A DNA stretch of 64,000 bases from an uncultured Planctomycetia bacterium (GCA_964590435.1 CAZPWT010000029.1:66280-130279); one strand, 5' to 3'. Positions 28,262-47,333 are shown, counted from the stretch's first letter. Notes: generated by a model not told the origin, from the letters alone. Translations and numbers: made by a program.

Positions 28262-28347
28262 GCGGAAAAGGTCGTAACACGCCGCCGTCCGATTGGCGAG
28301 AGGCGGATGGTAGGATTGCGCCCCACGAAACCCTGCGGAGACCATCC

Positions 28348-28884
28348 ATGAAGCGGCGGATCCTGGCGGCGGCGCTGTGCCTGACCTCGCTGGCGGCGTG
28401 CGACAAGGTGAAGGAGATCCCGAATCCCCTCGGGGGAAACTCGGGAACCGGGGGCGGCGGCGACGCCGGCTCGCCGACCGGCACCGTCGACGCCTACAAG
28501 GCCGCCATCGCTTCGCAGGACTGGGGCAAGATGTACGGGCTGCTCTCCGCCGAGTTCCAGAAGCAGGCGGTGGCGGAGGTGGAGGGGCTGAAGCGCGACC
28601 TGGCGGGATCGGACGCGGGGAAGAAAAAGGCGGCCGAGGAGAAGATCCGGGCGCGCGGGCTGAAGCCGGAGCAGTTCACGCAGGGGGACCCGGCAAAGCT
28701 GGCAACGGAGTGGGTCGGTGCGGAGGTGATGCTGGGAAGCGCGCGCCTGCCGAAGGTGATCAAGGAAACGAAGGCGATCAAGCTGGACGACAAGAAGGCG
28801 TCGGTGGACTTCGTGAGCCCGGAGGGGACGACGGGAACGCTGAAGTTCGTGAAGGAAAACGGCGCGTGGCGGTTCGCGCCGTAG
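28348..28884 (+). CDS. Small lipoprotein, hypothetical.
   Basis: MKRRILAAALCLTSLAAC carries a lipobox. It is transcribed divergently from the kinase gene. Confidence 0.65.
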   Translation: MKRRILAAALCLTSLAACDKVKEIPNPLGGNSGTGGGGDAGSPTGTVDAYKAAIASQDWGKMYGLLSAEFQKQAVAEVEGLKRDLAGSDAGKKKAAEEKIRARGLKPEQFTQGDPAKLATEWVGAEVMLGSARLPKVIKETKAIKLDDKKASVDFVSPEGTTGTLKFVKENGAWRFAP

Positions 28885-28899
28885 GGCGGGCTACCCGAC

Positions 28900-29670
28900 G
28901 TGGGTGACCGGGCCTTCGACCTTGCCGCCCCCCCGCCACCCCGCTATCGTCCGGTCGTGCCCGAGCACGACACAACCATCCCCGGCCCCGCCGATTTCCC
29001 CAGCACCGCCTGGAGCCGCCTCATCCAGCGCCCCGACCGGGAAAGCGCGGAGTTTCTCGCCACTCATTACTGGAAGCCGGCCTACCTCTACGTCCGCCGC
29101 AAATGGCGCAAGTCCAACGAGGACGCCAAGGACCTGACCCAGGCGTTTTTCACCGAAGCGCTCCGGAGCGATTTCCTGCAAAAGGCCGACCCGAACCGCG
29201 GCTCGTTCCGGCGATTCCTGAAGGCGTCGCTCGAGAATTTCCTGCGCAAGCAGCACCGGGACGCGAAGGCGGAGAAGCGCGGGGGCGGCAAGCCCGCGCT
29301 GAGCCTCGACGATGTCGGCGAGGCCGAGGAGCTGGCGTCGCGCGAGGGCGACCCGGACGCGCTCTTCGACCGCGAATGGCTCGAGTCGATGTTCGAGCGC
29401 TGCCTGCCGCGCCTCCGCGAGGCGTATGAGAAGGACGGCAAGGCCGTCTACTTCGAGCTGTTCCGCCGGTACGAACTCGAGCGCCCTTCCCAGGGCGGCG
29501 TGACCTACGACGAGCTCGCCGCCGAATTCCGCGTGTCCGTCTCCGACGTGCGCAACTGGCTGCACCACGCCCGCACGAAGTGGCGCAAGATCGTGCTCGA
29601 CGAGATGAGCGAGACCTGCGCCAGCACCTCCGACCTCGAGGCCGAGGCGCGAGAGCTCTTCCCCGGCTAG
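28900..29670 (+). CDS. ECF-type sigma-70 family factor.
   Basis: STAWSRLI and DLTQAFFTEAL resemble region 2. The C-terminal helix-turn-helix TYDELAAEFRVSVSDVRNWLHHARTKWRKIV resembles region 4. Start is GTG, and the N-terminal boundary is uncertain. Confidence 0.65.
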   Translation: MGDRAFDLAAPPPPRYRPVVPEHDTTIPGPADFPSTAWSRLIQRPDRESAEFLATHYWKPAYLYVRRKWRKSNEDAKDLTQAFFTEALRSDFLQKADPNRGSFRRFLKASLENFLRKQHRDAKAEKRGGGKPALSLDDVGEAEELASREGDPDALFDREWLESMFERCLPRLREAYEKDGKAVYFELFRRYELERPSQGGVTYDELAAEFRVSVSDVRNWLHHARTKWRKIVLDEMSETCASTSDLEAEARELFPG

Positions 29671-29691
29671 CCGCCGGTAGAATGCGGCGCA

Positions 29692-31416
29692 GTGCCCCCG
29701 AAGCTCCCCGACCACGTCTTCTCCCGCCTCCGCTCCCTCGCCTCCGCCGAGGACCCCGAGGGCGCTTCCCTGTCCATGCCCCCCGACGCGTTCGCGGCGT
29801 GGAAAAAGGACGGCGCGGCGTTCGGGAAGTTCGTGCTGCTCGAGGAGCTGGGGCGCGGCGGGCAGAGCATCGTGCGGCGCGCGTGGCAGACCGACCTGCG
29901 CCGCGAGGTCGCGCTCAAGATCGTCACCGGGCTGAACCCCGAGCTGCGGCGGCGGTTCATGGAGGAAGCGCGTCTCGGCGCGCGGCTGACGCACCCGGCG
30001 ATCGTCCCGGTGTTCGAAGCGGGTGAGGACCGCGAAACGCTGTGGCTCTGCATGCCGCGCGTCGACGGGACCACGCTCGACCGGGTCAAGCTGACGGCGG
30101 CGGAAGCGGCGGTCGCACTGGCGGCGGCGGCGCGCGGGGTGCAGGCGGCGCACGAGCAGGGGGTGATCCACCGGGATTTGAAACCGCGCAACATCATGAA
30201 GAGCGGCGGCGGCGTGCACATCCTCGACTTCGGGCTGGCGAAGGCGGTCGGGCTTGCGTCGCAGACGAATGCGAGCGGACCAGGACTCGGCACGCCGCAC
30301 TTCATGTCCCCGGAGCAGGCCGCCGGCGGCTCGCTCGACGCGCGCACCGACGTCTACGCGCTCGGCGCCACGCTGTACGCCCTTCTCGCCGGCCGCCCGC
30401 CGTACACGACGACGGGGATGGGGGAATTCATCGCGGCGATCCTGCGGGAAGATCCGCCGCCGCTGCGATCGCTGGCCCCCGCGATCCCGTCGTCGCTCGC
30501 CGCGGTCGTCGAGAAGGCGATGTGCCGGGAGCCGGAGCGGCGCTACGCCACGGCCGCGGCGCTCGCGGAGGACCTGGAGCGCTTCGCCGCCGGCGAGCCC
30601 GTCTCCGCCCGTCCGGCCGGCCCGTCGGCCCGGGCGGCGCGGTGGGCAAAAAAGAACCCGGCGCTGTCCGCGATGGCGGCGACGCTGCTCGTCTCGATCG
30701 CCGCGGGCGTTCTCCTGCGCCAGGCGGGCCGCGCGTCCGCCGCGGATCCCCTTCCCGAGGCGCTCGCGCTGCTCAAACGGCAGGACTGGCGCGCGGCGGA
30801 GAAGATCCTGACGCCGCTGATCCAGAAGGACCCGGCGAACGTGGAAGCGCTCGTCGCGCGAGCCGAGTGCTGGTACGGGCAGCAGGAATACGACCTCGCG
30901 GCGAGCGACCTCGATGTGGCGCTTCAGGTCGCCCCTGCGGTGCCGTCGCGCTGGTTCCGGCGGGCGGAGTGCGCGGAGTGGCAGGCGCAGTTCCGGCGGG
31001 CGGAGCAGTGTTACACGCGGTCGCTGGATCTCGATCCGGAGAACGTAGAGTCGTGGATCGGTCGCTCGAATGCGCGGCTCAAGCAGGGAGATTCCGGCGG
31101 GGCGTTCGGCGACGCGACGGAGGCGGTGAAGCGGAACCCGGGGCACGCGTGGGCGCTGGGGGCGCGGGCGAAGGCGCTCAAGGCGCTGGACCGGCCCGAG
31201 CAGGCGATCCGCGATTTCAATGCGGCGCTGGCGATCCAGCCGAAGGAAGCGACGTGGCTGTCGGAGCGCGGGAGGTGCAAGCTGGCGCTGAAGGACTGGT
31301 CAGGCGCGCTGGCGGACCTGGAAGCGGGAGCGGAACTGAGCGACTACGTGAAGAAGCACGTGCAGGACGAGATCCAGGCCGCGAAGAAAGGGCTCGAAGC
31401 CGCCAAGCCGGAGTAG
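29692..31416 (+). CDS. Ser/Thr protein kinase with a transmembrane segment and a C-terminal TPR array.
   Basis: GRGGQSIV, VALK, HRDLKPRNIM and DFGLAKA motifs are present, with TPR repeats at the C-terminus. Start is the GTG at 29692. Confidence 0.85.
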   Translation: MPPKLPDHVFSRLRSLASAEDPEGASLSMPPDAFAAWKKDGAAFGKFVLLEELGRGGQSIVRRAWQTDLRREVALKIVTGLNPELRRRFMEEARLGARLTHPAIVPVFEAGEDRETLWLCMPRVDGTTLDRVKLTAAEAAVALAAAARGVQAAHEQGVIHRDLKPRNIMKSGGGVHILDFGLAKAVGLASQTNASGPGLGTPHFMSPEQAAGGSLDARTDVYALGATLYALLAGRPPYTTTGMGEFIAAILREDPPPLRSLAPAIPSSLAAVVEKAMCREPERRYATAAALAEDLERFAAGEPVSARPAGPSARAARWAKKNPALSAMAATLLVSIAAGVLLRQAGRASAADPLPEALALLKRQDWRAAEKILTPLIQKDPANVEALVARAECWYGQQEYDLAASDLDVALQVAPAVPSRWFRRAECAEWQAQFRRAEQCYTRSLDLDPENVESWIGRSNARLKQGDSGGAFGDATEAVKRNPGHAWALGARAKALKALDRPEQAIRDFNAALAIQPKEATWLSERGRCKLALKDWSGALADLEAGAELSDYVKKHVQDEIQAAKKGLEAAKPE

Positions 31417-34453: not shown

Positions 34454-35803
34454 CTACTCACCATACCGAATCAGGCGGAAATCGAGGCGCGAGGGGCGTT
34501 CGACCAGCAGGTACCTTGCGGAAGGGAAGCCCGGCTCATCCTCTGCGGGCACCGCATTCCCCGCATCCGCCTGGACGACGATGCGTCCGCTGGAGGGCAG
34601 GAACGCCCGATAGTGTCCGTCGCGATCGCATTGGAATACCTGGAGGCCGAAGTCGTTCGCCCGCTCCGGCTCGTCCCCAAAAACCTCGACCGTGGAGTCC
34701 GGAAGGGGTTTCCGGTCCTGGTCGAGCACGACTCCCTCGAGAAGCGTGCCGGCATCGAGCATGAGGCGGATGTCGGTGCGCGCCCTCCCTGCTTCGAGGC
34801 CGCGAAGGTCGAGAAAAGTCGCTGCCGTGGTTGGACTGGCCGCAAAGATCCGCACGAATTCCATGACCCGCCCGTCGTCGTGGTATCTCAGACTTGCGCC
34901 CTTGACAGAGAACGCGAAGTGCCCCTCCGCGTCCGTTTCACATTCCCCGAGACCGTGAGAAGTTGAGGCGCACGTGAACGCCTTGAATTCAACGACGACG
35001 TGTCCGGCGGGGCTCCCGTCGGGACGTTCGATCCAACCGGCGAGGAGCAGATCCGGAGGTGCTCGCTTCAGGGTGATCGCGAGGCGATTCACTCCCGGGC
35101 GGACAGGGACGTCCGCGGCGAGCGGGAAGTAACCTTCGAAACTCGCCCAGATGATGAGGCGGTTGTGAGCCAGATTCTTGTAACGGATCGGATTCTCGTC
35201 GCTGATCTCGGGGAGTCCTTCGATCTGCGCCAATCCGTCCGGTCCCGCCTTGAATCTCAGGCCCTTCGGCAAAGTCGAGATCTCTCCGCAGAAGGCCGGC
35301 AGCTGAACCGAGATGTCCGCGGCAAGCGGTTCACCCTGGTCTCCAGAGACCGTGGCCAGCAGGCTGCAGGGCACGGGAAGCATCACGTCGACTTCGGCGC
35401 CGGAATCCCCCAGGACGACTTCGCGATGGGCCCACACCAGGCATCGCGGGGCGGAGGCGACAACGGTGCAGGGTCCCTGTCTCCAGAGACTTGCGAGAAA
35501 CTCTCCCTTATCGTCCGCGGTAACCATGACCCATGGAGTCCCTTCAGGATCCTGCACGACCACCGAGGCATGGGGGACCGTCGTGCCGTCCTGGAAGCGT
35601 ACCGATCCACGAATTTGCCACCGGCGTGCGAGCGCCGGGCCGACCGTCTCCGGAGCGCTTTCTGTCCGAGCCTCCGGGCCTGCATGGTCATCAATTGCGT
35701 TGTCCTTGGCACCCGCAGGCGTGGCGGAAACATTGGAATTCCGTGCGGGCGGGGAACGCCGCGGAAGGGTGACGAATACAGCGATCGCCATCGCGGAGAC
35801 CAT
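34454..35803 (-). CDS. Membrane-anchored protein with carboxypeptidase-regulatory-like (CarboxypepD_reg) beta-sandwich repeats.
   Basis: ORF 34454..36115, trimmed to the ATG at 35801-35803 (MVSAMAIAVFVTL anchor) to avoid a 180-nt overlap with waaA. There are repeated G.V.F.DG..V..A.V.....T..D.GEF-type modules. Confidence 0.55.
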   Translation of the reverse strand: MVSAMAIAVFVTLPRRSPPARNSNVSATPAGAKDNAIDDHAGPEARTESAPETVGPALARRWQIRGSVRFQDGTTVPHASVVVQDPEGTPWVMVTADDKGEFLASLWRQGPCTVVASAPRCLVWAHREVVLGDSGAEVDVMLPVPCSLLATVSGDQGEPLAADISVQLPAFCGEISTLPKGLRFKAGPDGLAQIEGLPEISDENPIRYKNLAHNRLIIWASFEGYFPLAADVPVRPGVNRLAITLKRAPPDLLLAGWIERPDGSPAGHVVVEFKAFTCASTSHGLGECETDAEGHFAFSVKGASLRYHDDGRVMEFVRIFAASPTTAATFLDLRGLEAGRARTDIRLMLDAGTLLEGVVLDQDRKPLPDSTVEVFGDEPERANDFGLQVFQCDRDGHYRAFLPSSGRIVVQADAGNAVPAEDEPGFPSARYLLVERPSRLDFRLIRYGE

Positions 35804-35934
35804 GGCGATTGCCGCCGCCGCGCGCTTGCAGGTGCCTGGAATCGAAGTCCCCCCCTCCCTCGCTCGAGTCCGCACCAGGGAAATCCGACAGCCACGGCAC
35901 CTATTGTAGACCTTGGCGCCCCGCGCACTCCCGG

Positions 35935-37209
35935 TCAATTTGCCGACGTCGCGATGACCACCCTTTCGATCTCCGCTAGATTCCGCGCCGTGGCGCCGGC
36001 CTTCCCCTGAAGGGCGATCTTCGCCCGCTCCCCCATCGCCGCGGCGTCGCGGGGACTGTCGAACAGGCGGCGGAGCGCCGGGAGCAGCGCCTTGTCGTCG
36101 GCGATCGGCTCGCATCCCTCCGCGGCGCGGAGGAGCTCGAACGCTTCGCGGAAGTTCTCCATGTGAGGGCCGAAAACGATGGGCTTGCCCATGGCGGCGG
36201 GTTCCATGATGTTCTGGCCGCCGCGCGAGGTCAGGGAGCCGCCGACGTAGGCGACGGTGGCGAGGCCCCAGAGGGTGCGGAGGTCTCCGACGGTGTCGAC
36301 GACGACGACGGCGTCGGGAGGCGGAGACTTGAGGGCGTCGATCTCGGTTTTGCGGATCGTCTCGAAGCCGGCCTCGGCCGCAGCCTTGGCGACGTCGGCC
36401 CCGCGCTCGGGATGGCGGGGCACGAGCACGAGCCTGAGATCCGGCATCGCGGCCTTCAGCTCCTCAAATGCGTGGAGCAGGAACTTCTCCTCGGGATCAT
36501 GGGTGCTGCCGCCTACGAGGATCCGGGCGTCCGGGGCGATCCCGAGCTTCGACGCCAGCGCCGCCTTCGCTTCCGCCGACGGCGCCTCGGGCAGACCGTC
36601 GAGCTTCATGTTCCCCGTTACGCTCACCCGGTCGGCCACGAACCCCGCTTCCTTCGCCCGGGCGGCGTACTCCTCGGTCTGCGCAAGGAAGCGCGTAACG
36701 GAGCGGAACGCGCCGCGGATCGGCAGCTTTGCGTAGCGGCTCGCGCTGCGGGCGGAGATGCGGCCGTTGATCACCACGACCGGGACGCCGCGGCGGCGGC
36801 AGGCGCGGACGAAGTTCGGCCAGACCTCGAGCTCGACGAGCGCCACCGCCGCCGGCTTGACGCGGCGCAGGGATCTCGCCACGCACCACGACAGGTCGAG
36901 CGGCCACTGGATGACGGCGAGGTCGCCGAAGTTTTTCTTTGCAACCTCGCGCCCGGTCGGCGTGAACGCGCTCACCACCACGTCCCAGTCCGGGTGCGCC
37001 TTGCGCCACGCCGCCACGAACCCCTTCGCCAGCAGCACCTCGCCGACCGACGCCCCGTGCACCCACAGGCAGGGCTTGTCGCCGCCGCGGCGCGGAACGC
37101 CGCCCAGCCGCTCCCCCAGGTGCCGCCGCCAGCGCCCCGAGACGAGCAGCGCCACGATCCAGAACGGCGCGCCTAGGAGCAGGGCCAGCAGGTAGAAGAG
37201 GTCGAACAC
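35935..37209 (-). CDS. waaA: 3-deoxy-D-manno-octulosonic-acid (Kdo) transferase.
   Basis: An N-terminal anchor helix and HGASVGEV, VVINGRISARS and VGGSL blocks are typical of KdtA/WaaA. Confidence 0.9.
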   Translation of the reverse strand: MFDLFYLLALLLGAPFWIVALLVSGRWRRHLGERLGGVPRRGGDKPCLWVHGASVGEVLLAKGFVAAWRKAHPDWDVVVSAFTPTGREVAKKNFGDLAVIQWPLDLSWCVARSLRRVKPAAVALVELEVWPNFVRACRRRGVPVVVINGRISARSASRYAKLPIRGAFRSVTRFLAQTEEYAARAKEAGFVADRVSVTGNMKLDGLPEAPSAEAKAALASKLGIAPDARILVGGSTHDPEEKFLLHAFEELKAAMPDLRLVLVPRHPERGADVAKAAAEAGFETIRKTEIDALKSPPPDAVVVVDTVGDLRTLWGLATVAYVGGSLTSRGGQNIMEPAAMGKPIVFGPHMENFREAFELLRAAEGCEPIADDKALLPALRRLFDSPRDAAAMGERAKIALQGKAGATARNLAEIERVVIATSAN

Positions 37210-37319
37210 GCGAAGGCGGCCTCAGGAACGCCGCGGGCGCGGCGTCCCCTCATTGCGTCCGAACCCGGCCGTCGCCTCGCCCCTCAACACTCAACCCTCA
37301 ACGCGCGCCCCTCCAGCGG

Positions 37320-40076
<2,757 letters not shown>

Positions 40077-40260
40077 GGGGGGCGCGGCGCCGATTAGGGG
40101 AAGCGGGGAACTCTAGCGTGAGGGCGAGGATGTCGCAAGCGTCGGACCGCGGGGCGGAAGCGTGCGCAAGTTGGTATTTGGCCGCAGGTAAGGGCGAAAC
40201 GGCGCCTCCACAGCCCGCGCGATTTCATGTCAGTTAGGCAGGGTTCACCCCGCCGCCGGC

Positions 40261-43200
40261 CTACTTCTCCTTCAACTTCGCGATCGCGGCCTCGGCGAGG
40301 GTGCGGTCGGGGTCGCCTTGTGCGCCGGACTTCACCGCCTTCTCGTAGGCCTCCAGCGCGCGATCCTTGACGCCCTTCGCCCGGTAGACGTCGCCCAGCT
40401 GCCGCCAGATCCCGGGATTCGCGGGCTCGGCCCGCGTCCCGTCAATCGCGTCGAGCATCGCCGTTTCCAGGTCGCCCTTCTTCGCCATCAGGCTCGACCT
40501 CAGCTGGAACCCCGCGGCGCTCTTCGGCGCCGACTTGATGAGCTCGTCGGCGTCCTCGAGCGCGCCGTTGGCGTCCCCGGCCAGTTCGCGGTAGCGTCCC
40601 CGCCGCGCGCGAAACCCGGCATCGGAAGGGCTGGCCTCGAGCGCCCGCGTCATGGCGTCCGCGGCCTCGCGATTGCGGCCGGCGATCGACAGCACGAGCG
40701 CCTTCGTGTCGAGCGCTTCGAGGTTCTTCGGCGCCAGCGCCAGCGCCCGGTCCAGGTCGTCCAGGATCGCCGCCATGCCGGCGGCCGACCCCGGGGCCCT
40801 CGAGGCCGTCTTCACCCTCGCACGCAGGACCAGCGCTTCCGCGTTCCGCGGATCGATGGAGAGCATCTTCTCGCAATCCTCCAGGGCGCCGGAAAAAGCG
40901 CCCTGCTGGAGGCGGCTGGAAGCGCGCACGTGGAGCATCGTGAGGTCGCGGGGGTATGCGGCGAGGACCTGGGTTGCGTCGGCGACCGCGTCGCTGAAGT
41001 TATGGTGAAGAAACTCGATCCGTGCCCTCAGGCGCACCGCCATGGTCAGGCCCGGGGACAGTCGCAGCGCCTTCTCGCAGGAGTCGCGCGCCGAGGTTGA
41101 ATCGCCGCGATTCAGGCTGGCCGTCCCCAGCACCACCCACGCGGTGGCCGATCGCGATTCCAGCTCCAGCGCCTGCTCCGCGTCCTTCACCGCCAGCGCG
41201 TCTTTCCCCGTCAGTAGATTTACGTACGCCCTCAAGATGAGGCCGCCGGCCTGGGACGGGCTGGCCCCGATGGCGAGCTCCGCCTCGACCAGCGCCTTTT
41301 CGTAGTCGCCGTCGTAAACGTAGATCCATCCGCGGATCCGGAACGTCTCCGGGTCGCCGGGAGAGATCCTCAGGGCGCGTTCGCAGTCGGCAAGCGCCCC
41401 CGCCCGGTCTCCCATCCGGGAACGGTACTCGGCGCGCAGGTGCAGCGCATCCAGGCTGTCCGGATCCAGCGCCACCGCGGCATCGGCATCTTCCAGCGAC
41501 GCGTCGAGTTTCTGCAGCCGCTCCCGCAACTGGGCCCGCAGGACCAGCGCTGCGACCAGGGCGGGTTCGCGCCGAAGCGCCTCGGTGCAGTCGCGCTCCG
41601 CGTCCTCGACGTGCCCGGCGACGTACCGGACGAACGCCGCGGTGACGAGCGCCGCAGGGTCCCGATCCTGGGCCGCCTCGCACTCCGCGAGCGCGTCGTC
41701 CTCGCGGCGAAGGGTGTACAGGCTCCAGGCGCGGGCGAGCCGGACATCCGTCGAGGACGGGTGCAGCAGGGGCATCCCGTCAATCGTGCTGAGCGCTTCC
41801 CGGTACTGGCACTCCAGGCGGAGGGAGAGCCAGAGGGAGACGGCGAAGAGGGGGTCCCAGGGGCGGGCGTCGCGGGCGGTCCGGAAGTGTTCGACGGCGT
41901 GGGCGGGGTCGGCGGCGCCGCGGATCCACGCGAGATCGGGGGCGAAGGGGTCGCCGGGGGCGGGGCGGACGGAGGAGGCGATGCGGAGGGCGGCGGCGGG
42001 GTCGAGGGACAGGAGGGCGCGCGCCGACGCGTGCCAGGCCGCGGCGGAGGGGGACTGGCCTTCCCACGCGGGGCCGTCGGCGACGAGGCGCGCGACGCGG
42101 CCCGGGGCGGCGGGGTCGGGAGACGGAAGGGGCGTGAGGGTCGAGCCCGGGAGCGGTGCGGGGGGCGGGTAGAGGCCGATGCGGCGGCAGATATCGGGGC
42201 AGCCGCGGCGGCTGACGGCGAGCCCGTGCGGGCCGAAGCAGGAGAGCGCCCAGGCCTGCAGGTCGGCGCGGAGGACGAGGGCGGGGCTGAGAAGCGGCTG
42301 TCCGTCTGCGGTTTTCGGGAGGCGCGCGAGGTCGCCGGGCTGGAGCAGCGTCGCGGCCTGTTCGAGGAGGCGCAGCGCGGGAGGGTGGCCGGGGCGGGCG
42401 CGCAGGGCGGCGCCGAGGGCGTCGAGTACGGGGGCGAGGAGCCGGTCGAGAAGGGCGCGGTCGGTCTTTCCGGAACCGGCGGCCGCTTCGGCGGCGTTCA
42501 GCGCCGCGCGGGCCTCGACGACGCGCCGGTCGGCCTCGCGGCCGGCCGCCTCGGCGTCGCGCGCGGCGGTGATGGAAGCGTTGCGGGCCGTGACGGCGGC
42601 CTCCAGCCGCTTGACGGCCTCGGCTGCGGCGGCGCTGTTCGGGTCGGCGGCGAGCGCGGCGCGCGCGAGTTCCAGCGCGGGCTCGAGGCGCCCGGCGGCT
42701 TCGGCGGCGGCGGATTCGGAGAGCGGCTTCGCGGCATCGCCCCCGGCGCGGCGGGAGAGGACGACGATCGCAATGAGCGCGACGGCGGCAACGCCGGCGG
42801 CGATCGCGATCCACTTCCCTTTTCCGGCACCGGCCGCGGCGCTGCCCCGCCCGAGCCACGCTCCGAGTTCGCCGTCCATCGCGGCGGAGGTGAGCTGCCC
42901 GTCGCGGGCCCGTAGAAAAATCCCCGCGAGCGCGCCGTCGATCGCGATCCGACCCTCCGAGCTGGCGTCGCGCGTCGTGTCGCCCTTCACCTTCGACAGG
43001 TCCGTCGTCTCCCCCGCCGGCGAAGGCGCGGCTTTCGTCGTCGGCCCTCCCCCGGGGGAAGGCTGGCCGGTCAGTTCGCAGAAGATCCGCCCCAGGCCGC
43101 GCACGTCGCCCACGGCGTCCCCGTCCTCCAGCCCGAACTCGGTCACCTTCACCTGGTGTTCCCAGCCGCCTTCGCCCTTCGGGCTTCGGCGGCCTCCGCC

Positions 43201-43695
43201 CGCCTTCGACTCGCGGCTCACGACGAGGACGTTCCCCGCGGACAGCCGGCCGTGCGCCAGGCCCTTCGCGTGTGCCGCCGCCAGCGCCTGCGCGACCTCG
43301 CGCGCGATCGTCGCCAGCGTCCGGCCGTCGAGCCACGGGATGTCGCGGACCGGCAGGGCCTCGAAATACGGGCGCGCATACCAGAGCTGCCCCGCCTCGA
43401 GCCCGCCCCCCGCCGGCGCCACGATCCTCGGGTCTCCCGCCGCCTTCGATTTCTTCCCCGCCGCAAGGACCTTCTCCTTCATCCCCGCCGGCGGACGCGG
43501 CCAGACCCGGAGCGCCAGCCACTCCTTCCTCTCGGGGTCCCACGCGTGCCACAGGTCGTGCGCCACGCCGGCGCCCAGCCGCTTCGAAAGCTGGAATCGG
43601 CCGAAGCGCTCGCCGCCGCCGTCGCGCGCCAGTTCCGGCGGGATCGGCAGGGTGGCGTCGCTGCGGGGCGGGTTTTTCGGAGGTTGGTCGGCCAT
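40261..43695 (-). CDS. Pseudokinase-TPR membrane protein with a degenerate Ser/Thr-kinase-like N-domain.
   Basis: The kinase-like fold has its catalytic residues replaced: VAIK reads LALRVW, HRD reads HGRLSAGN, and DFG reads EFG. A transmembrane segment and more than 15 TPR repeats follow. It lies immediately downstream of an active kinase gene. Confidence 0.8.
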   Translation of the reverse strand: MADQPPKNPPRSDATLPIPPELARDGGGERFGRFQLSKRLGAGVAHDLWHAWDPERKEWLALRVWPRPPAGMKEKVLAAGKKSKAAGDPRIVAPAGGGLEAGQLWYARPYFEALPVRDIPWLDGRTLATIAREVAQALAAAHAKGLAHGRLSAGNVLVVSRESKAGGGRRSPKGEGGWEHQVKVTEFGLEDGDAVGDVRGLGRIFCELTGQPSPGGGPTTKAAPSPAGETTDLSKVKGDTTRDASSEGRIAIDGALAGIFLRARDGQLTSAAMDGELGAWLGRGSAAAGAGKGKWIAIAAGVAAVALIAIVVLSRRAGGDAAKPLSESAAAEAAGRLEPALELARAALAADPNSAAAAEAVKRLEAAVTARNASITAARDAEAAGREADRRVVEARAALNAAEAAAGSGKTDRALLDRLLAPVLDALGAALRARPGHPPALRLLEQAATLLQPGDLARLPKTADGQPLLSPALVLRADLQAWALSCFGPHGLAVSRRGCPDICRRIGLYPPPAPLPGSTLTPLPSPDPAAPGRVARLVADGPAWEGQSPSAAAWHASARALLSLDPAAALRIASSVRPAPGDPFAPDLAWIRGAADPAHAVEHFRTARDARPWDPLFAVSLWLSLRLECQYREALSTIDGMPLLHPSSTDVRLARAWSLYTLRREDDALAECEAAQDRDPAALVTAAFVRYVAGHVEDAERDCTEALRREPALVAALVLRAQLRERLQKLDASLEDADAAVALDPDSLDALHLRAEYRSRMGDRAGALADCERALRISPGDPETFRIRGWIYVYDGDYEKALVEAELAIGASPSQAGGLILRAYVNLLTGKDALAVKDAEQALELESRSATAWVVLGTASLNRGDSTSARDSCEKALRLSPGLTMAVRLRARIEFLHHNFSDAVADATQVLAAYPRDLTMLHVRASSRLQQGAFSGALEDCEKMLSIDPRNAEALVLRARVKTASRAPGSAAGMAAILDDLDRALALAPKNLEALDTKALVLSIAGRNREAADAMTRALEASPSDAGFRARRGRYRELAGDANGALEDADELIKSAPKSAAGFQLRSSLMAKKGDLETAMLDAIDGTRAEPANPGIWRQLGDVYRAKGVKDRALEAYEKAVKSGAQGDPDRTLAEAAIAKLKEK

Positions 43696-43758
43696 GATCC
43701 GGGGACACAGGTCCCCCGGAAGATGATACGGGAATCCGGGCCGTCCGCGAGACGCGGC

Positions 43759-44952
43759 TTACGCCAGCGCGTGGACGATCGCCGCGCCCGCCGCCCCGGC
43801 CGCCACCAGCCAGACCGCGGCCTTGCCGCAGCCGCCCTTCTTCGCCGGCGCCGCTTGCGCCGACTCCGCGCCCGCCGGGAAACTCTCCTGCACCCACGCG
43901 TCCAGCGCGTCCGCCAGCTCCGCCGCCGTCTGGTGCCGCTTGGCAGGGTCCTTTTCCAGCGTCTTCATCACGATCGCGTCCAGCTTCGAGTCGATCGTCG
44001 GGTCGATCGCCCTCGGGCGCTGCGGCAGCGTGTCCTGCACCAGCCGCAGCCCTTCGAAGATGTTTTTCGACTCGAACGGCGGCCGCCCGACCAGCCGGTC
44101 GTACAGCGTCGCGCCCAGCGCGTACACGTCCGTGCGATGGTCCACCTGCTTGCCGCTCGCCTGCTCCGGCGACATGAACGACGGCGATCCCATCACCGTC
44201 CCCGGGATCGTCAGCTGCGTGCTCGCGTCGCTCTCGCGCGCAATGCCGAAATCCATCACGAAGATGTGGTGCGAGCACCCCTCGATCGACTTCGAGTTGC
44301 CCCCCGGCTTCGGCTTGCTCTGCACCATGAAGTTCTCGGGCTTCAGGTCGCGGTGCACGATCCCCTTGTCGTGCGCGTACTGAAGCGCCCGCGCCGCGTC
44401 ACGAATCAGCTCGACGCTGATCCTCCGGCTCGTCCGCGGGAACGCCCGCAGCGTGTGCCCCGCCACGAACTGCATCGCGATGTACCACAGCCCCTTGTCT
44501 TTCCCCGCATCGTAGATCCGCGTGATGTTCGGGTGATTCATCCCGCTCGCCATCTGCGCTTCCCGCGCAAATCGCGCCAGCTGCACCATGTCGTTCGACC
44601 GCAGGATCTTCAGCGCCGCCCAGCGCCCTTCCTTCAGGTCCCACGCCTTGTACACCTCCCCCATCGACCCCGTCCCCACCTTCTGGATCTTCACGAACCC
44701 GCCCAGGTGCGCGCTCTTCGACGCTGCGGCCACTTCCGGCGGCATCGGCTTGCGCGAAGCGGTCACGGGGGCCGCGGCTTTCTGGAGTCCGGAGGGGGAA
44801 GCGGACTTCTGCGCGCCGGGCGCGGCGAGGCGCAAGCCGGAAGCGGGCGGCTTGGGTTTTGCGGGCACGCCCGGCCTCTGGGGCGGGACCGGGGGACCGG
44901 CGCCGCGGGGCTTGCCCTGCGGATTCGGTGGCGGGTTGGGAAGCGGGCTCAA
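43759..44952 (-). CDS. Ser/Thr protein kinase with a Pro-rich N-terminus and a C-terminal transmembrane helix.
   Basis: GTGSMGEVYKA, ALKIL, HRDLKPENFMV and DFGIARE motifs are present. The C-terminus AAVWLVAAGAAGAAIVHALA is hydrophobic. Confidence 0.85.
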   Translation of the reverse strand: MSPLPNPPPNPQGKPRGAGPPVPPQRPGVPAKPKPPASGLRLAAPGAQKSASPSGLQKAAAPVTASRKPMPPEVAAASKSAHLGGFVKIQKVGTGSMGEVYKAWDLKEGRWAALKILRSNDMVQLARFAREAQMASGMNHPNITRIYDAGKDKGLWYIAMQFVAGHTLRAFPRTSRRISVELIRDAARALQYAHDKGIVHRDLKPENFMVQSKPKPGGNSKSIEGCSHHIFVMDFGIARESDASTQLTIPGTVMGSPSFMSPEQASGKQVDHRTDVYALGATLYDRLVGRPPFESKNIFEGLRLVQDTLPQRPRAIDPTIDSKLDAIVMKTLEKDPAKRHQTAAELADALDAWVQESFPAGAESAQAAPAKKGGCGKAAVWLVAAGAAGAAIVHALA

Positions 44953-44989
44953 GGGGCGAAGTGTAGCACGGGTCCGGAAGTTGGGAGGA

Positions 44990-46159
44990 CTACCAGCCGG
45001 CGCCCGGGAGGACGATTTTCTCGCCGAAAATGCGCTCGTAGTCGCGGAGCGCGTAGCGGTCGGTCATGCCGGCGATCCAGTGGGCGACGACGAGCTCGCG
45101 CTCCTTTTCGCCGGCGGTCTCGAGCTTCTGCCGCTCGAGCTCGGGGAGGAGGTTGGGCTCCTTGAGGTACCGGATGTAGAGCGCGCGGATGACCTTCGAC
45201 CCGACGCCGCAGGCCTCCTTGACCTTCGCGGACAGGTAGAACTTGTCCATGAGCAGCCCGCCGAGTTCCTTCTGCTCCTTGGCCATCGCGAACGACCAGC
45301 CCACGAGCGGCTTGCGCGCGGCCCGCACGTCGGCGAGCCCCTTCACGCCGGCCTCTTCCAGCCTCTGCGCCGTCGCCGTGATCACGTCCTGCACCATCAC
45401 GCCGATCGCGCGCCGCGTGATCCGCGCCAGTCGCAGGCTCGGCCGCATGTCCCCCGACAGTTCCGTCTCGATGCGCCGCCAGAACGCGATCGCGCGGAAA
45501 TCCCCCTCCTGCATGATCCGAGACTCCAGCCCGTCCTCGATGTCGTGCGCCCGGTACGCGATGGTGTCCGCGAAATTCGCGACCAGCGCCTCCAGGCTCG
45601 GCGCCAGGTTCGGGTTGAAACGGTACGTCCCGATCCGGTCGTAGTCCGTCTCGTGCTTCTCGATCCCCTCGAGCACGTCCGTCGTCAGGTTCAGCCCGGG
45701 GAATCCGGGGTAGCGCTTCTCCACCTCCGTCACGATCCGCAGCGAATGCTCGTTATGGTTGAAGTGCCCGCAGATCGCCTGGAGCTCGTCTTCGCCCTTG
45801 TGGCCGAACGGCGGATGGCCGAGGTCGTGGGCGAGGACGATCGCCTGCATGAGGTCCTCGTTGAGCCCGAGGGCGCGGGCGATCCCCATGCCGATCTGGG
45901 TGGCCTCGAGCGTGTGCGTGAGGCGGTTACGGACGAAGTCGGACCCGAGTCCGTGCGGGAGGACCTGCGTCTTGTACTCGAGCTTCCGGAACGCGCGCGA
46001 GTGGACGACGCGATTCCAGTCGTGCTGGAAGTGCGTCCGGGAGTCCGTGAGCGACTCGGGGTGGATGCGGCGCGCGCCGCGGGAGCGGACGGCGATCGGC
46101 GCGAGGGCGCGGTCCTCGATGTCCTCGAGCACGGCGCGGGTGCGGATGAGCGGGCTCAT
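44990..46159 (-). CDS. dgt: dGTP triphosphohydrolase-like HD-domain protein.
   Basis: ORF 44990..46429, trimmed to the ATG at 46157-46159 (MSPLIRTRAV...). The HD motif LAHDLGHPPFGH and the Dgt-family C-terminus are present. Confidence 0.8.
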   Translation of the reverse strand: MSPLIRTRAVLEDIEDRALAPIAVRSRGARRIHPESLTDSRTHFQHDWNRVVHSRAFRKLEYKTQVLPHGLGSDFVRNRLTHTLEATQIGMGIARALGLNEDLMQAIVLAHDLGHPPFGHKGEDELQAICGHFNHNEHSLRIVTEVEKRYPGFPGLNLTTDVLEGIEKHETDYDRIGTYRFNPNLAPSLEALVANFADTIAYRAHDIEDGLESRIMQEGDFRAIAFWRRIETELSGDMRPSLRLARITRRAIGVMVQDVITATAQRLEEAGVKGLADVRAARKPLVGWSFAMAKEQKELGGLLMDKFYLSAKVKEACGVGSKVIRALYIRYLKEPNLLPELERQKLETAGEKERELVVAHWIAGMTDRYALRDYERIFGEKIVLPGAGW

Positions 46160-46203
46160 GGTTCGACGGCATGCTACGCCAAACGAGCGGAGGGTGCGAA
46201 CGC

Positions 46204-46301
46204 GAGTTCGGAGACGGGAGTTCGGAGACGGGAGGGCCGACCTGCTGCGGTCAGCGAATTCGAGCATCGCACTACCGTCTCCGAACTCCCGTCTCCGAAC
46301 T
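46204..46301. repeat. Long inverted repeat (two ~28-bp arms, each an internal direct duplication, around a ~40-nt loop) in the divergent dgt/dehydrogenase promoter region.
   Basis: The left arm gagttcggagacgggagttcggagacgggag sits at 46204-46234. The right arm ccgtctccgaactcccgtctccgaact sits at 46275-46301. Confidence 0.85.
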
Positions 46302-46379
46302 GCCGTTCGCGCGGAGTTTGACAAGACAGGTCGCCCGCGCGAACCTCGCGCAACGAACCGCGCCACCGGAGACCCCCGC

Positions 46380-47333
46380 ATGCCCGCACCGAGAGTCCTG
46401 ATCGCCGACGCCGTGAGCGACGCCGCCATCGAAGTCCTGAAGAAAGGCGGCGTGGAGGCCGTGAAGAAGACGGGGATGACCGAGGATCAGGTCTGCGCGG
46501 AAATCGGCTCCTACGAGGGCCTGATCGTGCGAAGCGCGACGAAGGTGACGCCGAAGGTGATCGCGGCCGGGAAGAAGCTGAAGATCGTCGGCCGCGCGGG
46601 CGCCGGCGTCGACAACATCGACGTCCCTTCCGCCGTGAAGGCCGGCGTGATCGTCGAGAACACGCCGGGCGGCAACACGACGAGCGCCGGCGAGCACGCG
46701 ATCGCGCTGATGTTCGCGCTGTCGCGGCACATCGCCTTCGCCGACCGCTCGATGCGCGCCGGCGAGTGGCCGAAGAAGGGGACGACGGGGGTCGAGCTCA
46801 CCGGCAAGACGCTGGGCCTGCTCGGCCTCGGCCGTGTGGCGACCGTGCTCGCCAAGGTCGGCCGCGCGCTCGACATGACCGTCCTCGTCTACGACCCCTA
46901 CGTCAGCGACGCGCGCGCCGCGGAATTCGGCGCGAAGAAAGTCTCGCTCGACGAGCTCATCCCGAAAGCCGACTTCATCTCCGTCCACTCCCCCCTCACC
47001 CCCGAGACGAAAAATCTCATCGGCCCCGCGCAGTTCGCGAAAATGAAAAAGTCCGCCCGACTCATCAACGCCGCCCGCGGCGGGATCGTCGACGAGGCCG
47101 CCCTCCTCGACGCGCTCAAGACCGGCAAGATCGCTGGCGCCGGCCTCGACGTCTTCGAGACCGAGCCCCTCCCCGCCGACTCCCCCTTCCGCTCCCTCCC
47201 CAACGTCGTCCTCACTCCCCACCTCGGCGCCAGCACCGAGGAGGCCCAGGAGCGCGTCGCGGTCGAGATCGCCGAGCAGTTCGTCGCCTACTTCACGAAG
47301 GGCGAGGTCCGGAACGCAGTGACGGCCAAGTAG
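46380..47333 (+). CDS. D-isomer-specific 2-hydroxyacid dehydrogenase (short-form 3-phosphoglycerate dehydrogenase-like, no ACT domain).
   Basis: An NAD-binding GLLGLGRVA fold and a catalytic region …ARGGIVDE…TPHLGASTEE are present. The ATG at 46380 is in frame with the track ORF. Confidence 0.8.
   Translation: MPAPRVLIADAVSDAAIEVLKKGGVEAVKKTGMTEDQVCAEIGSYEGLIVRSATKVTPKVIAAGKKLKIVGRAGAGVDNIDVPSAVKAGVIVENTPGGNTTSAGEHAIALMFALSRHIAFADRSMRAGEWPKKGTTGVELTGKTLGLLGLGRVATVLAKVGRALDMTVLVYDPYVSDARAAEFGAKKVSLDELIPKADFISVHSPLTPETKNLIGPAQFAKMKKSARLINAARGGIVDEAALLDALKTGKIAGAGLDVFETEPLPADSPFRSLPNVVLTPHLGASTEEAQERVAVEIAEQFVAYFTKGEVRNAVTAK

What the first reader, a model, noticed from the sequence alone, without database searches (positions are those of the whole stretch)
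40261..44952. Active Ser/Thr kinase immediately followed by a giant pseudokinase-TPR protein
A canonical kinase (HRDLKPEN, DFG) is followed 63 nt later by an 1144-aa protein. Its N-terminal kinase fold has lost the beta3 lysine (LALRVW), the catalytic aspartate (HGRLSAGN) and the DFG aspartate (EFG). Beyond that are a transmembrane segment and more than 15 TPR repeats. Kinase/pseudokinase partner pairs are well known in eukaryotes but are little described in bacteria.
Basis: partly seen in the sequence, partly recalled or inferred. Interest (0 to 1): 0.55.

Follow-up and report, generated by a model that had tools for sequence, protein, structure and literature searches.

The report
Split receptor kinase: kinase plus pseudokinase
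A small group of Planctomycetota keeps an active, membrane-tethered Ser/Thr kinase gene next to a gene for a catalytically dead kinase look-alike with a large TPR domain, and matching changes at a known kinase dimer contact suggest the two work as one two-part receptor.

Summary
On the minus strand, a canonical Hanks kinase "K" (43759-44952) is followed 63 nt later by a 1144-aa protein "PK" (40261-43695).

- **PK is kinase-derived but dead.** It has lost the beta3 Lys, the alphaC Glu, the HRD Asp, the catalytic-loop Lys and the DFG Asp. Its gatekeeper is Arg, and it lacks 31 residues covering the activation segment, P+1 loop and APE.
- **PK architecture.** After the kinase-like domain come one transmembrane helix, a helical stalk and 14 regular TPR hairpins.
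- **The pairing is conserved.** All 8 informative lineages of uncultured Planctomycetota have the order HD hydrolase, K, PK, SecA. Three lineages carry an extra active kinase-TPR gene after K; it lies between K and PK in the two whose contigs reach PK.
- **The dead domain is under selection.** It is the most constrained part of PK.
- **New result.** At the residue matching PknB Leu33, the core of the activating N-lobe dimer, 85% of active relatives keep Leu. Every K ortholog has Glu (0 of 175 relatives do). PK has Lys/Arg in 6 of 8 lineages. The R10/D76 equivalents are split between the two proteins.

Best reading: a split receptor kinase that works as an obligate K:PK heterodimer. It is a new variant of known bacterial pseudokinases. 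Nothing here is experimentally tested.

The parts
43759..44952 (-). K: active Hanks-type Ser/Thr kinase, 397 aa from the TTG. Gene callers in relatives start at the Met matching M70, ATG at 44743-44745, giving about 329 aa.
   Evidence: Pfam Pkinase E=8.8e-44 and NCBIfam PknB-like hits. K115, D202 and D234 are present. Orthologs at 66-95% identity.
43927..44694 (-). K kinase domain (residues 87-342). Interface-equivalent residues are G85, just upstream of this span (PknB R10), E108 (PknB L33) and D148 (PknB D76).
   Evidence: E at the L33 position in all 12 K orthologs seen, against 0 of 175 active relatives.
43762..43830 (-). K C-terminal hydrophobic tail anchor (residues about 375-397). There is no extracytoplasmic domain.
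   Evidence: Kyte-Doolittle maximum 1.89 at 378-397. The tail 'KKGGCGKAAVWL...' is conserved in orthologs.
43696..43758 (-). 63-nt K-PK spacer. No promoter-like or terminator-like site on the gene strand, so co-transcription is likely.
   Evidence: The small hairpin just 5' of the ATG is not significant (z=-1.08).
40261..43695 (-). PK: 1144-aa receptor-like pseudokinase-TPR protein.
42826..43617 (-). PK pseudokinase domain (residues 27-290). Key residues: R63 (beta3 Lys), A/G at the alphaC Glu, H148-G149-R150 (HRD), S152 (catalytic-loop Lys), E186 (DFG Asp), H46 (third G-loop Gly), R108 (gatekeeper). The activation segment, P+1 loop and APE are deleted. Interface-equivalent residues are R33, R56 and G96.
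   Evidence: Alignment to PknB, K and active relatives. PDB phmmer. Foldseek. dN/dS 0.09-0.24, the lowest in the protein.
42961..43062 (-). Low-complexity loop replacing alphaG (residues 212-245), with conserved TT(K/Q)AAP and (D/E)TTR motifs. These are candidate phospho-acceptor sites.
   Evidence: T219, T220, T240, T241 and R242 are invariant in the 4-ortholog alignment. 'TTR' is also present in the divergent L011 ortholog. pLDDT below 50.
42754..42813 (-). PK single transmembrane helix (residues about 295-314).
   Evidence: Kyte-Doolittle maximum 2.83. Helix 296-314 in the AF2 model.
41776..42732 (-). PK Ala-rich helical stalk and linker (residues 322-640). It includes a 52-residue helix (355-406), a low-confidence Pro/Cys-rich segment (492-530) and 2-3 degenerate helical hairpins.
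   Evidence: No Pfam family.
40267..41751 (-). PK TPR superhelix: 14 regular hairpins (649-1123) plus a capping helix (1129-1143). Predicted to be extracytoplasmic.
   Evidence: Pfam TPR_2 2.5e-33, TPR_1 6.4e-24 and others. Self-HMM. AF2 pLDDT about 90. Foldseek top hits are long TPR scaffolds (OGT, Ski3, Ctr9, APC).

Best explanation
K and PK are the two halves of a split receptor kinase. K is a catalytically competent kinase held at the inner face of the membrane by a C-terminal tail anchor, and it has no sensor domain. PK keeps the common Planctomycete receptor-kinase layout: cytoplasmic kinase fold, one transmembrane helix, periplasmic TPR array. Its kinase fold can no longer bind ATP productively or catalyse phosphotransfer.

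The two cytoplasmic domains pair through the N-lobe 'back-to-back' surface that PknB-type kinases use for activating homodimerisation. In K the central Leu of that surface is Glu. In PK it is Lys/Arg. The flanking Arg/Asp salt-bridge pair is split, with Arg only in PK and Asp only in K. Homodimers would therefore be disfavoured and the K:PK heterodimer favoured.

What the periplasmic TPR superhelix binds would set the state of PK, and so the activity or position of K. The conserved Thr-Thr motifs in PK's disordered loop are probable K phosphorylation sites that could recruit downstream partners.

Shown: gene pair, domain anatomy, loss of catalytic residues, conserved synteny, purifying selection, and the substitution pattern.

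Inferred: heterodimer formation, direction of regulation, topology, phosphorylation of the TT motifs, and the ligand.
For: 1. Anatomy.

2. Conserved pairing. All 8 informative lineages have HD-K-PK-secA, or HD-K-K2-PK-secA. K orthologs span 66-95% identity.

3. Rarity. Only two 50%-identity clusters among 1.84 billion representatives match the PK profile at E<1e-30. After them the score drops from 466 bits to 118 bits, at the first unrelated hit.

4. The dead domain is functional. Its dN/dS is 0.09-0.24, against 0.28-0.51 for the rest of PK. Many residues are invariant.

5. Interface pattern, in PknB numbering:
- Position 33: Leu in 149 of 175 active relatives, and in K2 and both other kinases of this window. 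Glu in 12 of 12 K orthologs and in 0 of 175 active relatives. Lys/Arg in PK of 6 of 8 lineages; Ala and Gly in the other two; never Leu or an acidic residue.
- Position 10: Lys/Arg in 125 of 173 active relatives. Gly in K. Arg/Lys in PK.
- Position 76: Asp/Glu in 139 of 173 active relatives. Asp in K. Gly in PK.
- Across PknB 7-159, L33E is the only non-conservative invariant departure of K from the family consensus.

6. L33D and D76A are the published mutations that break the activating PknB back-to-back dimer (PMC13434768). PDB entries for these mutants appear.

7. The nearest non-family proteins are active kinase-TM-TPR receptors. This architecture is common in the phylum, with the TPRs predicted to be periplasmic (PMC11032199).

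8. Several database relatives fuse an active kinase domain and a similarly degenerate one in a single polypeptide, for example P0017 and P0042. This is Rosetta-stone support.

9. No promoter-like or terminator-like site lies between the genes on their strand.
Against: - There is no experimental or structural evidence of contact. The tools return no interface or PAE data, so a complex prediction could not be evaluated.
- The AF2 model of the pseudokinase domain is poor (pLDDT 53).
- The interface assignment is by homology to PknB. It assumes these Planctomycete kinases use the same dimer. For StkP that interface was not the one used in solution (PMC13434768).
- In two divergent lineages PK has Ala or Gly, not Lys/Arg, at position 33.
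- An extra active kinase (K2) follows K in three lineages (between K and PK in the two whose contigs reach PK), so K-PK adjacency is not strict.
- Tandem kinase duplications are common in kinase-rich bacteria (PMC11032199).
- dS is near saturation and codon bias is extreme, so only the relative dN/dS values are meaningful.
Confidence: 0.5

Rival explanations
1. PK is mainly a phospho-scaffold, as MviN is. K, or another kinase, phosphorylates the conserved Thr-Thr motifs in PK's disordered loop. The phosphorylated loop recruits a reader protein, such as an FHA-domain protein, to a periplasm-facing TPR platform. PK does not regulate K allosterically. This partly overlaps the best explanation.
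For: Conserved TT(K/Q)AAP and TTR motifs sit in an otherwise variable, low-pLDDT loop. There is precedent: the MviN pseudokinase also lacks the activation loop, has a transmembrane helix after the domain, is phosphorylated by PknB and then binds FhaA (PMC12599244).
Against: No FHA or phosphatase gene was seen among the neighbours examined. This model does not explain why K alone among relatives carries Glu at the Leu33 position, nor why PK carries the opposite charge.
Confidence: 0.22
2. PK is a decoy or inhibitor. It holds K in an inactive heterodimer, or competes for K's substrates, until a periplasmic signal releases K.
For: The same interface and synteny evidence as for the best explanation. 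PK lacks the alphaC Glu and has a remodelled alphaC, so it may not provide the activating geometry of a PknB-like dimer.
Against: Sequence data cannot distinguish activation from inhibition. In PknB the back-to-back dimer activates (PMC13434768).
Confidence: 0.1
3. There is no specific K-PK coupling. PK is a periplasmic TPR scaffold whose degenerate kinase fold is only a cytoplasmic anchor or interaction module for other partners. The adjacency is a relic of tandem duplication, kept within a conserved housekeeping neighbourhood.
For: Tandem kinase duplicates are frequent in kinase-rich bacteria (PMC11032199). K2 comes and goes after K, lying between K and PK where PK is seen. The whole HD...secA-waaA block is syntenic, so linkage alone is weak evidence.
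Against: The pseudokinase domain is the most constrained part of PK. The K-specific L33E change, with the opposite charge in PK, and the split R10/D76 pair are hard to explain without contact.
Confidence: 0.13
4. PK retains an atypical enzymatic activity, as SelO (AMPylation) and SidJ (glutamylation) do, or binds nucleotide as a switch. It would use the invariant His46 at the position of WNK's relocated Lys, Arg63 and Asn155.
For: His46, Arg63 and Asn155 are invariant or nearly so, and Glu or Asp is kept at the DFG position.
Against: The Arg gatekeeper, Trp after beta3, loss of the alphaC Glu, the catalytic Asp and the catalytic-loop Lys, and the lack of an activation segment all argue against an ordered active site. 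Pseudokinases that have lost all three motifs nearly always fail to bind ATP (PMC12599244).
Confidence: 0.04

Closest known systems
MviN (Rv3910) pseudokinase domain / ActPs3 family of Actinobacteria
   Same: All three catalytic motifs are degraded, the activation loop is deleted, a transmembrane segment follows the domain, an extracytoplasmic binding domain lies beyond it, and a partner active kinase (PknB) acts on it (PMC12599244).
   Different: MviN keeps the Leu/Asp of the back-to-back interface and forms homodimers. Here both are replaced, and the adjacent kinase carries the complementary changes. MviN is fused to a lipid II flippase-type protein and a carbohydrate-binding domain, is actinobacterial, and is not encoded next to its kinase. 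MviN (3UQC) was not among the PDB sequence hits.
PknB-type receptor kinases and their N-lobe back-to-back activating homodimer
   Same: Same fold and same layout (cytoplasmic kinase, one TM helix, extracytoplasmic repeat domain). The same three interface positions (R10, L33, D76) are conserved in the active Planctomycete relatives.
   Different: PknB is one polypeptide that homodimerises. Here sensor and catalyst appear to be split into two proteins with a charge-swapped, asymmetric version of the interface. The sensor is TPR, not PASTA.
Planctomycete / myxobacterial kinase-TM-TPR receptor kinases (for example the Myxo1 and GN-NS1 families, and the STK expansions in Ca. Uabimicrobium and Gemmataceae)
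   Same: PK has exactly this architecture, and its nearest non-family relatives are such proteins (PMC11032199; bioRxiv 10.1101/2025.01.12.632604).
   Different: Those proteins keep the K/D/D catalytic residues and the activation loop. PK has lost them and is tied to a sensor-less kinase.
Eukaryotic kinase/pseudokinase partners (HER3-EGFR/HER2, STRAD-LKB1, JAK JH2-JH1, plant tandem kinase-pseudokinase proteins)
   Same: The concept is the same: a dead kinase fold regulates a live one, and in HER3 the pseudokinase is the ligand-binding receptor chain. This rests on established knowledge and on the references listed in PMC12599244.
   Different: Independent origin. The predicted interface is N-lobe to N-lobe rather than the EGFR-type C-lobe to N-lobe asymmetric dimer. 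The setting is a bacterial operon.
Bacillus subtilis YabT (tail-anchored Hanks kinase without a sensor domain)
   Same: Like K, it is anchored by a C-terminal TM helix, lacks an extracellular receptor and needs an external activator (abstract of PMC6333020).
   Different: YabT is activated by DNA binding. No pseudokinase partner is known for it.

Membership tests
Hanks-type (eukaryotic-like) Ser/Thr protein kinase - protein K | Pkinase domain above the Pfam threshold, with beta3 Lys, alphaC Glu, HRD Asp, catalytic-loop Lys/Asn, DFG Asp and an activation segment with (S/A)PE | tested here: met
   PF00069 E=8.8e-44, 150 bits against a cutoff of 31.7. K115, E131, D202, K204, N207, D234 and SPEQ 261-264 are present.
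Protein kinase-like fold - PK N-terminal domain | Detectable homology and fold match to protein kinases | tested here: met
   Below the Pfam threshold (E=0.34). However: tblastn to K E=1.3e-12; PDB phmmer 3e-4; NCBIfam StpK7 3.6e-6; the profile hits 47,253 proteins at E<=1e-3, kinases where inspected; Foldseek finds PknB at 7.7e-7 with TM 0.38-0.46 on a low-confidence model.
Pseudokinase (Kannan/Eyers definition) | Lacks at least one of VAIK-Lys, HRD-Asp and DFG-Asp | tested here: met
   Lys to Arg and Asp to Arg/His/Lys in all orthologs aligned (a partial one has HAH). DFG-Asp to Glu in 5 of 7 full-length lineages.
Pseudokinase with WNK-like compensation | A conserved Lys elsewhere (G-loop/beta2) that restores catalysis, with the rest of the catalytic machinery intact | tested here: not met
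   There is no conserved Lys in the G-loop. The equivalent position is an invariant His. The HRD Asp, catalytic-loop Lys, alphaC Glu and activation segment are absent.
ActPs3 / MviN pseudokinase family | Activation-loop deletion and a TM segment C-terminal to the domain | tested here: met
   31-residue deletion. TM at 295-314.
ActPs3 / MviN pseudokinase family | Conserved Leu and Asp of the back-to-back homodimer interface (MviN L750, D793), and an actinobacterial lineage | tested here: not met
   The equivalent positions are Lys/Arg (or Ala/Gly) and Gly. The hosts are Planctomycetota MAGs. MviN is absent from the PDB sequence hits.
Other catalogued bacterial pseudokinase families (ActPs1, ActPs2, GLW, CP1, DYD, DLHK) | Family motifs and contexts: GLW in place of HRD; fusion to COG3899; DEAD-like helicase domains; no TM for CP1 and DLHK | tested here: not met
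   PK has HG(R/H/K), a TM helix and a TPR array. The family HMMs themselves were not available. The comparison is with the published descriptions.
TPR repeat proteins | Tandem 34-residue helix-turn-helix repeats matching the Pfam TPR models | tested here: met
   TPR_2 2.5e-33, TPR_1 6.4e-24, TPR_17 3.6e-23. 14 regular hairpins in the AF2 model at pLDDT about 90. Foldseek hits the OGT TPR domain and others at 1e-15.
Kinase:pseudokinase heterodimer (functional class) | Physical association of the two domains, and an effect of the pseudokinase on kinase activity | not testable with these tools
   Only indirect evidence: conserved adjacency (8 of 8 lineages) and complementary interface substitutions.

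The most novel reading that the evidence does not exclude
A bacterial receptor kinase has been split into an obligate heterodimer. A sensor-less, tail-anchored catalytic chain and a catalytically dead receptor chain recognise each other through a naturally charge-swapped version of the PknB N-lobe activation interface (Leu/Leu replaced by Glu/Lys-Arg, with the Arg-Asp bridge kept on one side only). This would be a bacterial counterpart of HER3-type signalling that arose independently. It sits in a conserved block next to secA and waaA, so it might link a periplasmic or envelope cue to secretion or envelope biogenesis.
Probability: 0.35. Interest if true: 0.7.

Novelty: new variant of a known kind. 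Interest (0 to 1): 0.5.

Why it matters
Bacterial pseudokinases are catalogued but almost none has a known partner or mechanism. MviN and YukC/EssB are the main exceptions.

This locus offers a defined partner pair and a specific predicted contact: K E108 with PK R56, and K D148 with PK R33. It also offers natural controls, namely paralogues in the same genome that keep Leu. The question of whether bacterial pseudokinases regulate kinases allosterically, as eukaryotic ones do, becomes directly testable with a few point mutants.

If confirmed, it would show that heterodimer specificity can evolve from a homodimeric kinase interface by a simple charge swap. It would also give a first functional handle on the large kinase-TM-TPR receptor families of Planctomycetota.

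Tried and rejected
1. **Read-through fusion of K and PK.** In the window the two ORFs are in the same frame, separated by one stop codon and 63 nt. Rejected: in L004 the genes are in different frames (coordinates), and K ends in a membrane tail anchor.

2. **Regulatory RNA or terminator in the spacer.** The hairpin just 5' of the PK ATG is not better than shuffles (z=-1.08). There is no terminator-like or promoter-like site on the gene strand.

3. **WNK-like compensation.** Not supported.

4. **PK as a decaying pseudogene.** Rejected. The ORF is intact in 8 lineages, and the pseudokinase domain has the lowest dN/dS in the protein.

5. **Membership of the MviN/ActPs3 family.** Rejected on interface residues, taxonomy and the lack of a sequence hit.

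6. **AF2 of the pseudokinase domain alone.** Low confidence (pLDDT 53). It was used only for the order of secondary structure and a fold-level search.

7. **Complex prediction.** Not attempted. The tool returns no inter-chain or PAE information and refuses sequences that are not from the window.

8. **Fold search of the full-length model.** It returned only generic long TPR scaffolds and gave no clue to the ligand.

9. **The middle region (320-640).** No Pfam family.

10. **Literature searches for a described bacterial Hanks kinase/pseudokinase operon pair, or for Planctomycete pseudokinases.** Nothing specific was found.


Full report
**1. What is in the window**

On the minus strand the gene order is as follows:
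- HD-domain phosphohydrolase with HD_assoc, dGTPase-like (44990-46429).
- Kinase K (43759-44952).
- A 63-nt spacer.
- The 1144-aa protein PK (40261-43695).
- A 184-nt gap.
- secA (37320-40076).
- A Kdo-transferase-like gene (35935-37209).

Third-position GC is 0.89 for both K and PK, as for the neighbouring genes.

K matches Pfam Pkinase at E=8.8e-44 and has every catalytic residue. Its last 20 or so residues are hydrophobic and conserved in orthologs. It therefore looks like a tail-anchored kinase with no extracytoplasmic domain. Its start is uncertain. The ORF opens at a TTG (397 aa). Gene callers in close relatives use the Met that corresponds to M70, giving about 329 aa. The Pro-rich N-terminus is still conserved at 65-77% identity in two relatives (51% in L004), with dN/dS of 0.24-0.39.

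**2. PK is a kinase-derived, catalytically dead receptor-like protein**

Pfam's kinase model does not reach threshold on PK (E=0.34). Homology is nevertheless clear:
- tblastn to K: E=1.3e-12.
- NCBIfam StpK7: 3.6e-6.
- PDB phmmer hits to PknE, PknI and MAP4K3.
- A profile of four orthologs retrieves 47,253 proteins at E<=1e-3; those inspected were kinases.
- The AF2 model is poor (pLDDT 53), but its secondary-structure order is that of a kinase. Foldseek returns PknB, PknE and PknI first.

PK was aligned with PknB, K and the nearest active relatives. The changes in PK, in PknB numbering, are:

| Position | Canonical residue | PK |
|---|---|---|
| G23, third Gly of the G-loop | Gly | His, invariant |
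| K40, beta3 | Lys | Arg |
| L42 | Leu | Trp |
| E59, alphaC | Glu | Ala |
| M92, gatekeeper | Met | Arg |
| R137-D138-x-K140-P141 | RDxKP | G-(R/H)-x-(S/T)-A |
| D156, DFG | Asp | Glu (Asp in two divergent orthologs) |

N143 is kept. The identification of M92 as the PknB gatekeeper is from my own knowledge.

A 31-residue deletion removes the activation segment, P+1 loop and APE. The alphaG region is replaced by a low-complexity loop. No Lys is relocated in the WNK manner.

After the domain come:
- One strong transmembrane helix at 295-314.
- A helical stalk that includes a 52-residue helix.
- A low-confidence Pro/Cys-rich linker.
- A confidently modelled TPR superhelix of 14 regular hairpins plus a capping helix. 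It resembles generic long TPR scaffolds.

With no signal peptide and a single TM helix, the kinase-like domain should be cytoplasmic and the TPRs periplasmic. The same topology is predicted for the many active kinase-TM-TPR proteins of this phylum (PMC11032199).

**3. Distribution and synteny**

The PK family is tiny:
- 4 hits in the 5.8-billion-sequence search.
- 2 clusters at E<1e-30 among 1.84 billion representatives, followed by a drop from 466 to 118 bits.
- 2 species among 185,579 genomes, both Planctomycetota MAGs.

Searching with K added further lineages.

| Lineage | Source | Arrangement |
|---|---|---|
| Window | this window | HD-K-PK-secA |
| L005 | ENA contig | HD-K-K2-PK |
| L001 / L007 | Planctomycetia bacterium SJ466 | HD-K-K2-PK-secA |
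| L006 | H51-bin301_1 | HD-K-PK-secA |
| L010 | GCA_021413805.1 | HD-K-PK-secA-waaA |
| L004 | ENA contig | HD-K-PK-secA |
| L011-13 | GCA_026647635.1 | HD-K-PK-secA (waaA follows in L011) |
| L014 | JGI metagenome | HD-K-(97-aa remnant of an active-type kinase)-PK |
| L008 / L009 | Logan contigs | HD-K-K2, then the contig ends, so uninformative for PK |

In every contig that extends far enough (8 of 8 lineages), a K ortholog lies upstream of a PK ortholog.

K2 is an extra active kinase-TM-TPR gene of about 700 aa. It follows K in three lineages, and where the contig reaches PK (L005, L001/L007) it lies between K and PK. The window's closest relatives have K2 but the window does not, so K2 is gained or lost quickly.

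No promoter-like or terminator-like site separates K and PK on their strand.

**4. The dead domain is under selection**

Against relatives at 57-76% overall identity, dN/dS for the pseudokinase domain is 0.09-0.24. For the stalk and TPR regions of the same protein it is 0.28-0.51. For K's kinase domain it is 0.05-0.17. dS is near saturation in this GC3-biased genome, so only the ranking is reliable. The ranking is consistent across all four comparisons.

**5. A complementary interface signature**

In M. tuberculosis PknB, N-lobe back-to-back dimerisation positions alphaC and activates the kinase. L33D and D76A are the mutations used to break that interface (PMC13434768). The mutant structures appear among the Foldseek hits. 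That R10 is the salt-bridge partner of D76 is from my own knowledge.

All domains were aligned to a common HMM and read out in PknB numbering.

| PknB position | Active relatives | K2 and the window's two other kinases | K orthologs | PK orthologs |
|---|---|---|---|---|
| R10 | Lys/Arg in 125 of 173 | Lys/Arg | Gly | Arg/Lys |
| L33 | Leu in 149 of 175; Glu in 0; Arg in 2 | Leu | Glu, 12 of 12 | Lys/Arg in 6 of 8 lineages; Ala (L011); Gly (L014) |
| D76 | Asp/Glu in 139 of 173 | Glu | Asp | Gly |

Across PknB positions 7-159, K departs invariantly from a >=60% consensus at only four sites: L17V, L33E, L66M and L159I. L33E is the only radical change. Position 32 is also reversed, with Lys/Arg in K and Glu/Asp in most PK orthologs.

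The simplest reading is this. K:K would bring Glu against Glu. PK:PK would bring Lys against Lys. Neither homodimer could form the Arg10-Asp76 bridge. K:PK would pair Glu with Lys/Arg and keep one Arg(PK)-Asp(K) bridge.

This rests on homology and is not a demonstrated contact. The StkP paper also shows that not every Hanks kinase uses this interface in solution.

**6. Other clues**

- PK's loop of residues 212-245 carries invariant Thr-Thr pairs (TT(K/Q)AAP and (D/E)TTR). The TTR motif persists even in the divergent L011 ortholog. These are plausible phospho-acceptor sites. MviN is the precedent: its pseudokinase tail is phosphorylated by PknB and then binds FhaA.
- Several proteins retrieved by the PK profile are single polypeptides with one active and one degenerate kinase domain. 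Examples are P0017 (second domain Lys to Arg, HGN, EFG) and P0042 (Lys to Arg, HGN, shortened activation loop). The two domain types are therefore also found fused.

**7. Comparison with what is known**

Two recent surveys define seven bacterial Ser/Thr pseudokinase families: ActPs1-3, GLW, CP1, DYD and DLHK (PMC12599244; bioRxiv 10.1101/2025.01.12.632604). They note that loss of all three catalytic motifs is common in bacteria.

None of the seven is Planctomycete or TPR-linked, and none is described as encoded with a partner kinase. TPR arrays C-terminal to active kinases are known in five families. A Planctomycete kinome study simply set aside kinases lacking the K/D/D residues as non-functional.

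The closest analogue is MviN/ActPs3, which also has an activation-loop deletion, a following TM segment and a partner kinase. MviN, however, keeps the Leu/Asp interface and homodimerises, and PK fails that membership test.

PK is therefore a new pseudokinase family within a known kind. The K:PK arrangement is a new variant: a receptor kinase apparently split into a catalytic chain and a dead sensor chain.

**8. Verdict**

The TPR count is 14 regular repeats rather than more than 15.
- The mechanism (heterodimer through a charge-swapped PknB-type interface, with possible phosphorylation of the TT loop) is an inference. I put it at about 0.5 overall and about 0.35 for the specific interface.
- Interest is moderate. 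The class is known, but this is a clean case with built-in controls that a few point mutants could test.

Noticed in passing
window 28885-31413 (+): An ECF-type sigma factor gene (28885-29667, Pfam Sigma70_ECF 1.5e-05) is followed 3 nt later by an active kinase-TPR gene (29671-31413). This looks like a sigma factor/Ser-Thr kinase pair. This kinase keeps Leu at the PknB-L33 position.
   Followed up: partly
window about 27021-28484 (-), within the open frame 25910-28675: A third active Hanks kinase (Pkinase 1.5e-46) with a long C-terminal region that matches no Pfam family. It also has the canonical K/R, L, E interface residues.
   Followed up: partly
L001/L007 630-2816 and 6861-9959; L005 2088-4193; L008 9042-9560; L014 4164-4457: An extra active kinase-TM-TPR gene (K2, about 700 aa) lies between K and PK in two lineages, and follows K in a third (L008) whose contig ends before PK. 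These include the window's closest relatives. It is absent from the window, and L014 keeps only a 97-aa remnant. Gene content turns over quickly inside an otherwise fixed HD...secA block.
   Followed up: partly
window 40261-44952 (-): K and PK are in the same reading frame, separated by a single stop codon and 21 codons. The same holds in L006 but not in L004. This is probably chance, and no read-through signal was found.
   Followed up: yes
database proteins P0017, P0042, P0112, P0142, P0081, P0123: Single polypeptides carry an active kinase domain together with a degenerate one (Lys to Arg, HG[NDRH] in place of HRD, sometimes a shortened activation loop). Bacterial tandem kinase-pseudokinase proteins seem fairly common among relatives and are not discussed in the pseudokinase surveys read here.
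   Followed up: no
window 35935-46429 and loci L010, L011: The block HD hydrolase - K - PK - secA - Kdo transferase (waaA-like) is syntenic across lineages. The constant position of the kinase pair just upstream of secA might hint at a link to secretion or envelope biogenesis. This is pure speculation.
   Followed up: no
window 43024-43044 and 42967-42981 (PK residues 218-224 and 239-243): Invariant Thr-Thr dipeptides (PTTKAAP, DTTRD) sit in an otherwise variable, disordered loop that replaces helix alphaG. They are candidate phosphorylation or docking motifs.
   Followed up: partly
window 34454-36115 (-): A 553-aa ORF with an Arg/Gly-rich N-terminus and a hydrophobic segment. It overlaps the 3' end of the waaA-like gene by about 180 nt as listed. 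It was not examined, and its true start is probably further downstream.
   Followed up: no
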